This document shows, piece after piece, positions 482 to 61,700 of a DNA stretch of 64,000 nucleotides. The position numbers and the translations under genes are program-made. Positions within the stretch are counted from its first letter, which is position 1. Every line of letters begins with the position of its first letter. This DNA comes from Amoebidium appalachense (lineage: Eukaryota > Protista > Ichthyosporea), in NCBI GenBank assembly GCA_963693365.1, contig CAVNZM010000012.1, positions 8,250,001-8,314,000 of the forward strand. Reading direction: 5' to 3'. The notes beneath the pieces were generated by a model that worked only from the letters and a program-made list of their open reading frames with translations, was not told the origin of the DNA and ran no database searches.

Positions 482-3400
482 CTATTGGACGTTTGCATAC
501 TCCTTGATCACCTGTGTGAAAAGACAAATAAAAAAATCAGCATTCCAGGTCTGGAAATTATTCTGGAGATTATTCAGTTCTGGAGATCAATTATACACAT
601 GCAGTCCGATCATCCACATACCCCCCCCCCCTCCCCCTCCCCCTTCTTTCTTTTTTTCTTTCTTTTCTTTCCACTGAGCCTTCTACTTATTTACCTACAC
701 ATAACACACAAACACCCCCCCCCCCCCCCCCCAACCACCACACACACACACACACACACACACACACACACACACACACACACACACACACACACACACA
801 CACACACACACACACACACGTACGCACACACACACACACACACACACACACACACACACAAACCTTTGTAGCCCACTGAGCCTTCTTTTTGATATTAGTC
901 GCCTGCACATACCACCCCCCCCCCTCCCGCAAACCCACCCACCCGAAGCCCAACCCCCTCCCCCCGCCCCTCCCTCCCTTCTCCCCCCCCCCCCCCCCCC
1001 CCCCCCCCCCCACACACACACACACCTTTGTAGCCCACTGAGCCGTCTTCATACTTGCCTGCACATAACTCCCCCCCCCCCCCCCCCCCCCCCCCTCGCC
1101 GTTCCCCACCCCAACACACAAACGTACACACCCACCCGCACCCACACACACACACCTTTGTGGCCCACTGCGCCGTCTTCTTGGTTGCCTGCACATCCGA
1201 TGCCTTTGCCTCGTTTAGCAACCTCCGCACCCACGCCAAGTCCACAAGTGGTTTCATCTGCACAGTGAACACCTCACACAGATCCCTGCACGCAAGAGTA
1301 ACTGTTAGCAAAATTAATGTGTATCTCTCTCTCTCTCTCTCTCTCTCTCTCTCTCTCTCTCTCTCTCTCTCTTCCCTCCCTCCCACTCTCTCTCCCTCCC
1401 TCCCTCTCTCTCCTCCCTCCCCTCACTCTGTGTGTTTGTGTGTGTGTGTGGTGTGTGTGCGTGTGCGTGCGCGCGCGCGCGTATCTGTACTGCATTAGTT
1501 GTACGTGATTGTGGTGGTAGGGGTGGGGAGGGGAAATAGGGTGCGGAAGAGGGTGTGTGTAGGTGTGTGGGTTTTATAAATTTGGTTTTCTTTTTTTCCT
1601 GTTTTTTTTTTCATTACTATGTGTGTGTGTGTGTGTGTGTGTGTGTGTGTGTGTGTGTGTGTGTGTGTGTGTGTGTGTGTGTGTGTGTGTGTATGGGGGG
1701 GGGGGGGGGGAGGGGGGGAGGGGGGGATGCACACCCGAGCAAGCCTGTAGCGCTGCGCATCATGCCGTCAGTGCACGACTGGTCGGTGACACAGACCTGG
1801 ATGAACTCAACAATCATCGGCACGTGGCTCTTGAGCTGCTGCATCTCCTCTTGTGTGTGTGTGTGTGTGTGTGTGTGTGTGTGTGTGTGTGTGTGTGTGT
1901 GTGTGTGTGTGTGTGTGTGTGTGTGTGTGTGTGTGTGTGTGTGTGTTGAGGGGATGGGAGGGCAGGTTAGGGAAGTTGGAGAGGTCGGGGGGGGGGGGGG
2001 GGGGGGGGGGGGTTTGAATGCGGAACACGGTACAAGGTATGCATACACGACGGACACATGCAAAGGCAATCATTCAAGTATGCAACATCAGCCATACGCA
2101 CAGTATGCGTCATAAGCAGAGCCCATCCTCAGGGAGGGCCCAAGTCATCAATTGCGTCTGAGTTTCGACCCCTTAGCCCGCGTATATACGACTCTCCAAC
2201 TCAGACAGCAGCATCACCTGAACTTGGGAGGGTCAACCCGTCTTGATCAAAGACGAGCAGGGTTGCTTATGCAAGCAAGGTGAGCAAAACGGTGAAGATG
2301 TGTGTGCAAACTAATGCATGGCAGCGAAAAATGCGTATGTGCTTACAGATGCACGACACAGAGCAACCATGCCCGGTTGCATGGAAGTAAAGCGTCGGGG
2401 GGGGGGGGGGGGGGAGGAGCGGGGGTATATGTGTGCAGGGGGGGTGGGGTGGGGCGTGTTGAGTGGGGAGGAGAGGTGTGTGTGTGTGTGTGTGTGTGTG
2501 TGTAGGGGGGGGGGGGGGGGGGGGGGGGGGGGGGGGGGGAGGGGGGGAAGGGGGTATGTGCACACGTTTGTGTGTATGCGTGTGTGTGTGTGTGTGTGTT
2601 TGTGTTTGTGTGTCTGTATGCGTACACGTGGATGCGTGTACGTGTGGGTGTGCAGGTGAGCAAGTAGGGGATGGTGGGGTCTTTCTTTTCCCCCTAGAAG
2701 AAAAAAATAAGCTTGATGTTGGCCGTGGGTGGGTGCTTCGGGTGAGCTGTGATGGATTCAATGGGTGCAATCTTAGAAAATAAAGGACAAGAAAAGGGCA
2801 AAAAAATTCAATGCGGGGGGGGGGGGGGGGGGGGGGGGGGGTACGGTTCCACGGGCGGGATTCTCCCTTGAGGCCAATGACAATTCCGCAGAAACCTTCC
2901 AGAATGTTCTCTCTGAGGGTGATCATGTAGTCCTGCAGGTCATAGTCTGCCTCCGCCTGTGTGTGTACGTGTGTATGTGTGTGTACGTGTGTGTGGGTGT
3001 GTGTGTGTGGAGGGCGCCTGTGTGTCCGTGTGTTTGTGTGTGGGTGGGTGGGTGGGAGGGGGGTGGATGTGTGTGAGTGTGCTTGTGTGCGTGTACGTGT
3101 GTGCGCGCACGTGTGTTTGTGTGTGTGTGTGTGTGTGTGTGTGTGTGTATGTGGGTGTGTGTGTGAGTAGATGCCATCGGCATGAGAGGCTTTGCGTGTG
3201 GTTTGAAGCAAACCTAGTAAGCAACCCCAAAATCAAACATATAACCAAATTAAAAACACACACACACCAAGGCAGACACAGCACTAACTCACAACCCCTA
3301 ACCTTTTCCCTCCAATCTTTTCCATCACCTTAATCCTCAACAACACAGGCACACAAGAAGCGGGAGACGAAAAGAGACGCACGGGAAAGCAGGAGTGTAA

Positions 3401-58700: not shown

Positions 58701-61700
58701 CCACACACATACCACCACCATCACACGCACGCAGGCACGCAGGCACGCAGGCACACACACACACGCGCGCGCGCGCGCGCGCCACCACACACACACACAC
58801 ACACACACACACACACACACACACACACACACACACACACACACACACACACACACACACACACGTGCACCCCTACACACGTACCTGTGCCTGTGCCCCC
58901 TCGACTATACATCCCGCCACGTCCACCACCCTCACCGTCAAACTTTCTCTGTCGCTTAGTCCAAAAAGCTGCACCCGTGAGCCGAAAAGTCAGACTGGGA
59001 AGATTTATTCGCATCAGAATTCGGCTCTCAATCTCGGTCAAACAAACTATGAGCCCAAACTCTTGAGCTACCAATTCATTTGTAGCTCACACAGATATAT
59101 CCCCCCCCCCCCCCCCCCCCCCCCCCCCCCCCCCCCTTCACACCGACCCCCTTCCTCCCCATCCATCTCCGCCGCCCACTTCCCTAAGACATACACGCAA
59201 GCAGGCTAACCGAACAATACCATATCTTTCCTGTATAAGTAATGTGTTTTCTGCATCAAGTCACTCGATTCATTAGCAACGCGCACGCATACCGACGATC
59301 AAGAAATCACCTTTCCCCTTGAATCCCCCCTCCGTCTCTCAGTTTACCTGCTGTCCCTTCCCCCTCTCCCCTCCCCCCCCCCCCTCCCCCCCCCCCCTCC
59401 ACATCACCCATACACGCACCATCACGCATGAGCCAGAGACCCCAATCTCTACACATCTATAATCCCCCCCCCCCCCCCCCCCCCCCCCCCCCCCCCATAT
59501 GGGCTTATCAACACGTTCTAACAGCAGTTGTAACTCTCTTCCCGCCCCCTACTGCCATCCTTCATGCTTCCACTTTGTGTCTGCTGTGAAGGAAAGATAA
59601 TCATGGCAGACAAAAAACCTGGTACTTTTTCTTTCAATTTCGTTTCTTTTCTTCTGTTTTTTTTTGTTTTTGTTTTTTGGGGGGGGGGGGGGGGGGGGGG
59701 GGGACACCTTGAGTGTGAGTGAAGGTGCTGCCTTTTGAAAGCAGGAAGATGCAGATGCCTCAATTGCATACACCCTTTTTAATGTAATTTATTTTGTTTT
59801 ATTTTTTCATTTTTTGGGGGGGGGGAAGGGAGGCGGAAGGGGGTGGAGGGGGGGGGTTGGATGGGGGGGAGGGGGGAGAGGTGAGGGGTTAGTTATGCAA
59901 GTCTAAGAGGGGAAAGGAGTGTTCTACCGGTTCAGTCTGTGTGTAATGTGAACGAGGGGGAAGCAGGGAGGGAGAGGCAGGGAGACCCCCACACCCGAGC
60001 AGGGGGGGGGGGGGGGGGGGGGGGGGGGGGGGGGGGGGGGGGGATAACTTTTCCTTTAGCTTGACAGGTAATGCTGCAACAAGAAGAAATCAATTCTGAT
60101 TCGAAAACAATCAGTAGATGAATGTGGTCTTTTTCTTTTCTTTTCTTTCTTTCTTTCTTTCTTTTGGGGGAGGGGGAAGTGGGGAAGGTTGGGAGGGGAC
60201 CGGACACAAACGTTGGAGGAGGAGGGGGGGGGGGCGGGGGAGGGGAGGGGGGGGGCGGGGGGAGGGGAGGGGGAGGGGTCTGGAGAAACAAGTTGGATTG
60301 AGTCAGGAGGACAGGAGGTGTGTGTGTGTTTGGAGGAGGAAGGGGGGGGAGGGGGTGGGGTGTGTGTGTGTGTGTGTGTGTGTGTGTGTGTGGGGGGGGG
60401 GGGGGGGGGGGGGGGTGTTTTGGTTACCCCTGGTCGACTTCGTCGCCATGGAATGTGCCAGCATATTCCCGACCCACCCTCATCTCAAGACTACTTGCAC
60501 TGCTGACCACTATCACATCCGATACCTGTGTAAAATTTAAAGAATAACGACGATTGGGTCAGTTTCTGGAATAAAACAATCAACACAACAAAAGGCAATA
60601 ATTAGACTGGGCCAAGTCTCTCACGGACATACGGCGTGCGTGTATGTGTGGCTAAGGCGCTGATGTTGCATTCCGTTTTTCTGTTCTTTTTTTTTTTCAG
60701 TTTTCCTCTTTCTTAGATTCCGGAGTAGAGATGGGGGGTGGGGACGGGGGAGGGGGGGGGGGGGGGGGGGGGGGGCTAGGGGAGATAGGGGGGGCTTTAG
60801 GGGTTTACAACGATGAAAGGCATGTGAAATGATGAGACTAATACCATTAAACTCAGCAGGCTAGGGGAAGTTGCATGGTGTGTGTGCAGGCGTGTGCACA
60901 CACATAAATCCGTGTGTGTAAGTGTAAGTATCATGTGTGAGGCCAAAAGAGGCGCAGACGATATGAAAGCAATCAAGCAGTAAGTCGAGTGCTGGGAGTG
61001 TCTGTTGCTTCCTCCTCATTATTCTGTAGGGGGCGGTGGTGAAGCCTGCATGTGTTCATGTGTATGGATGTGCGTACATGTGCGTATGAGCGCGCACATG
61101 TGTGTGTGTGTGGTGTGTGTGTGTGTGTGTCCATGTGTGTGTGTGTGAGAAGGGAGAGAGGAGGTGGGCCGGGGGTAGGTGGTGGTGGTGGTGGTGGTGG
61201 GGGGGGGGGGGGGGGGGGGTTTGAATGCGGAACACGGTACGAAGTACGCATACACGACGAGAAGCATGGTGCAGGACACATGCAAAGGCAAACATTCAAT
61301 TATGCAACATCAGTCATGTGCACAGTATGCGTCATAAGCAGAGCCCATCCTCAGGGAGGGCCCAAGTCATCAATTGCGCCTGAGTTTCGACCCCTTAGCC
61401 CGCGTATATACGACACTCCAACTCAGACAGCAGCATCAACTGAACTTGGGCGGGTCAACCCGTCTTGATCAAAGACGAGCAGGGTTGCTTATGCAAGCAA
61501 GGTGAGCAAAACGGTGAAGATGTGTGTGGGGGGAGGGAGGGATAATACGACTATACATACCTGAATCAAGGAATCTGATTGGCCCCTTGCAGCTGCCAGA
61601 GCACTCAAATCGACAGTGATTGTGCAGGTGGGGAGGGAAGGGGAGGGGCTGGTGGGGGGAGGCCTAAGGACAACATGAGAGAGGGGCCCTGCAGAATCTG

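What the first reader, a model, noticed from the sequence alone, without database searches (positions are those of the whole stretch)
2013..61528. Candidate retroelement family that inserts specifically into poly-C/poly-G tracts
Seen: nine clear copies (2013, 8563, 15445, 24598, 25050, 26039, 27429, 57632, 61220) in two subfamilies. All share one fixed end, reading ...GCATTCAAA-Cn or a close variant on the minus strand, and their other ends stop at different points (about 56, 85, 108, 130, 140, 173, 309, 380, 445 bp), again running into a C/G tract. Established: a common 3' end with variable 5' truncation is the signature of target-primed reverse transcription, and some non-LTR elements target simple repeats such as (AC)n, (TC)n, (TAA)n or telomeric repeats. 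Inference: this is the 3' UTR or SINE of an element that targets C-homopolymers. I do not know of a described poly-C-specific family. Target duplication of the C-run could help spread the poly-C/G tracts seen across this genome.
Basis: partly seen in the sequence, partly recalled or inferred. Interest (0 to 1): 0.82.

Follow-up and report, generated by a model that had tools for sequence, protein, structure and literature searches.

The report
Poly-C-targeting Penelope-like retroelement in Amoebidium
A short non-coding repeat sits ten times in this stretch of a protist genome, nearly always between runs of G, with one fixed end and one ragged end; it is likely a Penelope-like retroelement of a kind already known to insert into poly-C in green algae, so it is mostly a new example of a known thing.

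Summary
Observation confirmed. All nine copies are real; a tenth, diverged copy lies at 22927. One end is fixed and the other ragged (56-445 bp). 7 of 9 insertion events have G-rich flanks on both sides, against 3.5% background. The host is the ichthyosporean Amoebidium. Copies 24598 and 25050 form a head-to-tail partial tandem joined by G7. Contigs from three public DNA runs span the same junction, so the full element is probably a non-coding unit of about 452 bp, not the 3' UTR of a long element. The claim of no known poly-C family fails. Chlamys Penelope-like elements target (C)n (13 of 49 listed families), end in A-C4-6 like this one, form partial tandems, and have non-autonomous partners giving short intronic 5'-truncated insertions. 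Best reading (0.7): a non-autonomous Penelope-like element copied by target-primed reverse transcription from a nicked G-run. Membership is not shown: I found no partner reverse transcriptase, no empty site and no significant target duplication. What would be new is the host lineage. Novelty: new member of a known kind; interest 0.3.

The parts
2013..2392 (-). Subfamily A copy, 380 bp, 5'-truncated, in an importin-beta intron, G26 and G18 flanks (strand inferred)
8563..8733 (-). Subfamily B copy, 171 bp, in an importin-beta intron, G41 at the fixed end
15445..15552 (-). Older subfamily A copy, 108 bp (about 90% identity); AGAA-Gn-A-Gm on both sides, a candidate target duplication
22927..23076 (-).
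   Evidence: (nhmmer E 1.7e-29)
24598..25042 (-). Probably full-length subfamily A monomer, 445 bp, no long ORF
25043..25049 (-). C7 (G7 on +) junction between tandem units; spanned by contigs of other copies in three DNA runs
   Evidence: tables 3, 4, 8
25050..25191 (-). 5'-truncated upstream partial copy (142 bp), pseudo-LTR-like
24750..24812 (-). Predicted central hairpin; variants in three copies keep pairing as G-U on the minus strand only
26040..26168 (-). Subfamily B copy, 129 bp; short G tract only at the fixed end
27429..27513 (-). Subfamily A copy, 85 bp, in an HMG-CoA lyase intron
57632..57687 (-). Subfamily B copy, 56 bp, identical to 8563 over its length
61220..61528 (-). Subfamily A copy, 309 bp
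4984..5069 (-). Possible decayed copy (weak)
   Evidence: E 0.043

Best explanation
This is a high-copy, non-coding repeat of Amoebidium that sits between G/C runs with one fixed and one ragged end and occurs as head-to-tail partial tandems; it is likely a non-autonomous Penelope-like retroelement of about 452 bp that is probably copied by a Chlamys-type reverse transcriptase/GIY-YIG protein encoded elsewhere. Inferred steps: (1) a tandem locus is transcribed on the C-bearing strand, so the RNA carries the unit's 3' end followed by C7; (2) the partner endonuclease nicks the G strand of a genomic C/G run; (3) the freed G-rich 3' end primes reverse transcription at the C7, possibly by pairing with it, which fixes one end; (4) synthesis usually stops early and gives the ragged 5' ends, or runs across the junction into the next unit and gives the partial tandem; (5) repair leaves G/C run on both sides. 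Shown: the copies, the fixed and ragged ends, the flank bias, the recurrent junction and the lack of a long ORF. Not shown: RNA, strand, enzyme, nick, pairing, target duplication.
For: Fixed end plus ragged end in 10 of 10 copies. Summed contig depth falls from 24648-24669 to 25022-25043 by 1.9, 6.0 and 8.0 times in three DNA runs (not monotonic, not a copy number). Flank bias 7 of 9 against 3.5%. Partial tandem in the window. The junction recurs in other copies: X1 record 4 (depth 75, 14 differences from the window) spans it, 25 X3 contigs show it one G shorter, and position 25042 is covered 33-38 letters from contig ends in X1, X3 and X7. A 483-nt repeat contig in X9 holds the B fixed end with about 287 letters before it, which fits a circularised unit of about 452 nt (inference, letters not shown). 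Chlamys elements show (C)n targeting, 5' truncation, partial tandems, non-autonomous families and no hammerhead (PMC8557442 sections 9, 15 and passages). All 7 (C)n-family consensus ends I saw end in A-C4-6 and 5 of 7 in AA-C5-6, like this element's AA-C7. De novo Chlamys-9/Chlamys-N4 insertions had median length 128 bp and were all intronic; here the median is 146 bp and 8 of 10 copies are in introns of identified genes. A Penelope-like protein initiates internally on its RNA in vitro (PMC11167929 passages). No hammerhead, no terminal inverted repeat.
Against: No partner protein was found. Pfam gave no RT or GIY-YIG in 150 of 212 complex ORFs of the window. tblastn with 7 Naiad/Chlamys-type proteins gave best E 0.82. 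Profile searches returned 42 and 15 proteins, none named as Amoebidium, and 10 unnamed clusters carried no name. There is no sequence similarity to Chlamys ends beyond the terminal motif: 5 of 6 element words were absent from the supplement and the sixth was an internal chance match. The target-duplication test was not significant with corrected boundaries (P 0.07-0.18; P 0.02-0.03 with looser boundaries). No empty site was seen. In the one Penelope-like element tested in vitro, initiation did not use homology to the cut DNA, so pairing at C7 is only a proposal. No inverted truncated copy or 30-40 bp tail was seen. Re-insertion into flanking G-runs also occurs (low-depth joints) and can mimic tandems.
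Confidence: 0.7

Rival explanations
1. It is a SINE-like or internally deleted derivative of a non-LTR retrotransposon (for example CRE, RTE or Tx1 type) that targets C-runs, and the tandems arise when new copies insert into the G-run left by older ones.
For: Fixed 3' end with 5' truncation is shared by all target-primed elements (general knowledge). Joints of truncated copies to new copy starts through G-rich spacers exist (tables 5, 5c). LINE-class repeats are annotated in Amoebidium (PMC11244446 supplement legend). The motif at 24757-24766 resembles a Pol III B box (recalled consensus).
Against: The full-length junction recurs at one fixed place with G6-7 in many contigs, which suggests it is templated. 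No tRNA-like head and no poly(A) tail. One literature search for poly-C-specific non-LTR elements listed a single paper, on LINE-1 (listing only), whereas (C)n targeting with the same end motif is documented for Chlamys.
Confidence: 0.2
2. It is a non-autonomous rolling-circle or other DNA element (Helitron- or Replitron-like) with one fixed initiation end and variable termination, whose circles give tandem junctions.
For: Tandem junction and a possibly circular contig. Predicted hairpins near the far end (z about -2). Replitron-1 inserts in one orientation at a purine-G target with variable duplications (PMC10288648 passages).
Against: Lengths fall continuously from 445 to 56 bp, whereas the Replitron passages describe only fuzzy ends and one 7-bp truncation. 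No inverted termini (best match 4 nt). Hairpin variants keep pairing as G-U on one strand, which fits RNA (weak).
Confidence: 0.06
3. It is not target-specific: copies survive or are assembled only next to the abundant G/C runs, or the runs grew after insertion.
For: G/C runs of 6 or more cover 6,124 of 64,000 bases, and homopolymer lengths in assemblies are unreliable (general knowledge).
Against: Enrichment P is 1e-7 to 2e-9. Copies were found by sequence search, independent of flanks. Loose ends at the fixed end are G-rich in 23, 78 and 117 contigs of three runs. Equally abundant CA/TG tracts are not used.
Confidence: 0.04

Closest known systems
Chlamys Penelope-like elements with (C)n preference and their non-autonomous partners (Chlamys-9_cRei / Chlamys-N4_cRei, MRC1; PMC8557442, 10.1101/2022.05.23.493040)
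   Same: C-run target, 3' end in A-Cn with the C-run on the inferred sense strand, heavy 5' truncation (median 128 bp there, 146 bp here), intronic sites, head-to-tail partial tandems, no canonical hammerhead.
   Different: Host is a unicellular holozoan, not a green alga, slime mould or brown alga. No DNA similarity beyond the terminal motif. Partner RT not identified. Unit is only about 452 bp.
Non-LTR retrozymes (non-autonomous Penelope-like derivatives; 10.64898/2026.07.22.740005)
   Same: Short non-coding monomers in head-to-tail tandems, presumed to be mobilised by Penelope-like proteins.
   Different: Defined by a type I hammerhead in each unit, which is absent here. Reported to be excluded from introns; these copies are intronic.
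Microsatellite-targeting non-LTR elements and their SINEs (recalled, not tested by sequence)
   Same: Target-primed insertion into simple repeats, fixed 3' end, 5' truncation.
   Different: No tRNA head, no poly(A); the fixed internal tandem junction is more typical of Penelope-like elements.

Membership tests
Naiad/Chlamys Penelope-like elements | RT with insertion-in-fingers domain, CxC linker and N-terminal GIY-YIG endonuclease in the element or its autonomous partner | tested here: inconclusive
   No RT in the window; no Amoebidium-named hit among 42+15 profile hits; no whole genome held.
Naiad/Chlamys Penelope-like elements | Fixed 3' end with frequent 5' truncation | tested here: met
   10 of 10 copies; depth gradient in 3 runs. 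Which end is 3' is inferred.
Naiad/Chlamys Penelope-like elements | Partial head-to-tail tandems forming pseudo-LTRs | tested here: met
   24598-25191; same junction in contigs of X1, X3, X7.
Chlamys, (C)n type | Insertion preference for (C)n, consensus ending in A-Cn | tested here: met
   7 of 9 events against 3.5% background; end motif compared with 7 consensus ends.
Naiad/Chlamys Penelope-like elements | Lack of a canonical hammerhead ribozyme | tested here: met
   Rfam scan of 24500-27600 to E 5 and core-motif scan of 5 regions on both strands found none.
Non-autonomous Chlamys | 3' end similar to an autonomous family in the same genome | not testable with these tools
   No assembly held; read-laying shows only 30 loose letters.
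Penelope-like elements | Optional 30-40 bp tail or inverted 5'-truncated copy | tested here: inconclusive
   No inverted copy among the 10; too few full-length ends to judge a tail.
Target-primed retroelements | Target-site duplication | tested here: inconclusive
   Suggestive at 15445 and 27429; permutation P 0.07-0.18. No empty site.
tRNA-derived SINE | tRNA-like head with A and B boxes | tested here: not met
   ARAGORN 0 genes in the window; no tRNA family in Rfam scan.
Non-LTR retrozyme | Type I hammerhead in each tandem unit | tested here: not met
TIR DNA transposon / MITE | Terminal inverted repeats | tested here: not met
   Best exact match within 40 nt of the ends is 4 nt.

The most novel reading that the evidence does not exclude
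The 452-nt unit is a ribozyme-free circular or multimeric RNA copied by an undescribed reverse transcriptase lineage of ichthyosporeans that evolved poly-C targeting independently of Chlamys and primes, telomerase-like, by pairing an internal C7 template with a nicked G-run.
Probability: 0.15. Interest if true: 0.6.

Novelty: new member of a known kind. Interest (0 to 1): 0.3.

Why it matters
Poly-C targeting itself is published, so the headline novelty falls. If the Penelope-like reading holds, it would extend such elements to a unicellular relative of animals, between the animal Naiads and the algal Chlamys. I found no such report or in the text and held supplements of PMC11244446 and PMC8557442; Repbase and Dfam could not be searched. 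The family is abundant: copies fill 1,974 of 64,000 bases here, and thousands of contigs per run match it. It would therefore be a notable unclassified part of a genome reported as about 50% transposons. A 452-nt template with a defined C7 junction would also be a small substrate for testing how these telomerase-related enzymes choose targets and start synthesis.

Tried and rejected
No whole genome is held, so no genome-wide end plot was possible. An exact 20-base element motif found 0 matches in viral and metagenome contigs. Earlier-findings look-ups were empty. Sequencing runs: 20 of 24 listed hold the stretch; no RNA holder is listed, and X18 is only guessed to be RNA, so expression is not addressed. 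The empty-site test at 8563 in 4 runs showed no joint across the copy; repeats were skipped, so this is no evidence either way. Ribozyme or RNA family: 9 weak Rfam matches, all far below gathering scores. A hammerhead-like half core lies on the minus strand but in the wrong order with any first core. Whole-unit folding is not exceptional (z -1.74 minus, -0.73 plus). Coding potential: no long ORF and no Pfam match in the element. Partner search: a degenerate RT motif found 0 viral and 21 metagenome loci; none resembles the element (best E 0.33); the profile built from 8 of them found no named Amoebidium protein, which is weak evidence because the search is word-based and silenced transposons are rarely in transcriptomes. 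Target duplication looked significant with my first boundaries (P 0.02-0.03) but not after correcting three boundaries (P 0.07-0.18); I report it as inconclusive. Summed contig depth was not used as a copy number. Rejected: MITE, tRNA SINE, retrozyme, and the element as main source of the genome's G/C tracts.
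Full report
Observation. A profile search adds a diverged tenth at 22927-23076 (E 1.7e-29) and a faint trace at 4984-5069. Subfamily A copies are about 84-99% alike in gapped BLAST alignments; subfamily B shares the terminal motif and a 69-bp block at 81-86%. 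All ten point the same way, with the fixed end to the left on +. Lengths are 56, 85, 108, 129, 142, 150, 171, 309, 380 and 445 bp (median 146). Copies 24598 and 25050 are separated only by G7, so I count nine events. Seven of nine have at least 9 G in the 12 bases at the fixed end, against 6.1% of background site-strands, and seven of nine have this on both sides, against 3.5% (P 1e-7 and 2e-9). The misses are 26040 and 22927. None lies in the 173 CA/TG tracts.

Host and context. A 74-residue importin-beta exon ORF matches one database protein at 100% over 89% of the query, and the source labels it Amoebidium parasiticum. That protein maps exon by exon across 485-14641 on the minus strand. I take the genus, not the species, as settled. 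Three copies lie in importin-beta introns and five in HMG-CoA lyase introns; 57632 and 61220 probably lie in introns of an unannotated minus-strand gene (inferred). The genome paper reports 202 Mb and about 50% transposons (PMC11244446 section 6). Its text and 2 held supplements do not contain the word Penelope, and annotation was automatic. Its repeat library was not seen and may hold this family unclassified.

Beyond the window. No assembly is held, so I laid public contigs on the element. 14,716, 10,538 and 5,796 contigs of three DNA runs align to 24560-25200, and 5,975, 5,210, 3,682 and 6 of four runs align to the B copy region. Loose ends at the fixed end are G-rich (23, 78 and 117 contigs). 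Summed depth drops from near the fixed end to the far end by 1.9, 6.0 and 8.0 times; it is uneven and is not a copy number. No loose end leading on from 25042 is among the 24 shown (1,053 not shown). Instead, other copies span the G7 junction into a second unit: X1 record 4 does so with 14 differences from the window, and 25 X3 contigs show the junction one G shorter. In X9 a 483-nt contig of depth 37 holds the B fixed end with about 287 unseen letters before it, while the unique flanks have no cover; this fits a circularised unit of about 452 nt but is inference. Low-depth joints show truncated copies followed by new copy starts, so re-insertion into flanks also happens. No empty site was seen.

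Anatomy. The unit has no long ORF or Pfam match, no inverted termini, no tRNA and no Rfam match or ordered hammerhead core. A central hairpin is predicted. Variants in 24598, 61220 and 8563 keep it as G-U pairs on the minus strand but would mismatch on plus, a weak sign that minus is the RNA strand. Target duplication is suggestive at 15445 (AGAA-Gn-A-Gm on both sides) and 27429, but the permutation test gave P 0.07-0.18 with corrected boundaries, against 0.02-0.03 with my first boundaries.

Mechanism. The best reading (0.7) is a non-autonomous Penelope-like element. A transcript across the tandem junction would place C7 right after the unit's 3' end. A partner endonuclease would nick the G strand of a C/G run, the G-rich 3' end would prime cDNA at that point, and synthesis would stop early (ragged ends) or cross into the next unit (partial tandem). 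Internal initiation on a tandem transcript is described for a lizard Penelope-like protein, but without homology to the cut DNA (PMC11167929 passages), so pairing at C7 is my proposal. Rivals are a LINE-driven SINE-like element with re-insertion tandems (0.2), a rolling-circle DNA element (0.06; PMC10288648 passages) and no true targeting (0.04).

Comparison with known elements. Craig et al. 2021 (PMC8557442: abstract, sections 9 and 15, passages, supplement parts 1, 2, 28 and searches) report (CA)n and (C)n targeting, 5' truncation, partial tandems, no hammerhead and non-autonomous families for Chlamys. 13 of 49 listed families prefer (C)n. All 7 of their consensus ends that I saw finish in A-C4-6, 5 of 7 in AA-C5-6; this element ends in AA-C7. 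De novo Chlamys-9/Chlamys-N4 insertions were all intronic, median 128 bp (10.1101/2022.05.23.493040 passages). Chlamys also occur in Ectocarpus (PMC12477816 passages). Retrozymes need a hammerhead (10.64898/2026.07.22.740005, first fifth of the text). So the element works like a non-autonomous (C)n Chlamys. Membership is unproven: no RT in 150 of 212 window ORFs, none by tblastn, and no Amoebidium-named protein among 57 hits of a profile made from 8 of 21 metagenome loci.

Novelty. Poly-C targeting is already described. Searches (listings) gave no report of such an element in ichthyosporeans; the library lacks most subscription papers, and Repbase and Dfam were not searchable. The idea that it spreads the tracts has little support: 17 of 260 runs of 8 or more touch a copy, and many C-runs simply follow splice donors. 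Verdict: real feature, new member of a known kind, interest 0.3.

Noticed in passing
window 1-64000: All ten copies have one orientation, with the C-run on the host gene's sense strand where the gene is known. P is about 0.04 given local G- versus C-run counts and 0.014 window-wide. It may reflect intron strand skew or a transcription-linked target bias.
   Followed up: partly
window introns, e.g. 2843, 3590, 7417, 12893, 23137, 25252 (minus strand): Long C-runs often begin within a few bases of the GT splice donor; G-runs on + outnumber C-runs 68 to 32 and 25 to 3 in the two minus-strand genes.
   Followed up: partly
window 485-19000 (-), 22500-28000 (-), 33500-37100 (+): Host genes: importin beta, HMG-CoA lyase and a flavin monooxygenase-like gene, with introns packed with (GT)n and G/C runs.
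   Followed up: partly
window 24757-24766 (-) and 8697-8706 (-): A motif shared by subfamilies A and B resembles both a hammerhead second core and a Pol III B box (recalled consensus); it sits in the 3' arm of the predicted hairpin.
   Followed up: partly
runs X18 and X1, table 7-8 and table 5c: Loose ends and a 514-nt contig of depth 213 point to further related subfamilies with the same terminal motif.
   Followed up: no
window 50873-50942 and 51428-51497; 56804-57201; 37425-37628; 41476-41568 and 50606-50698: Other repeats: an exact 70-bp direct duplication, two local tandem duplications, and a 93-bp pair at 76% identity.
   Followed up: no
L002, L008, L011, L013, L019; L007, L010, L015: Metagenome contigs encode Chlamys-like (GC-rich) and Naiad-like (AT-rich) reverse transcriptases; L008 has about 1 kb of 3' region followed by a C/CA tract.
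   Followed up: partly
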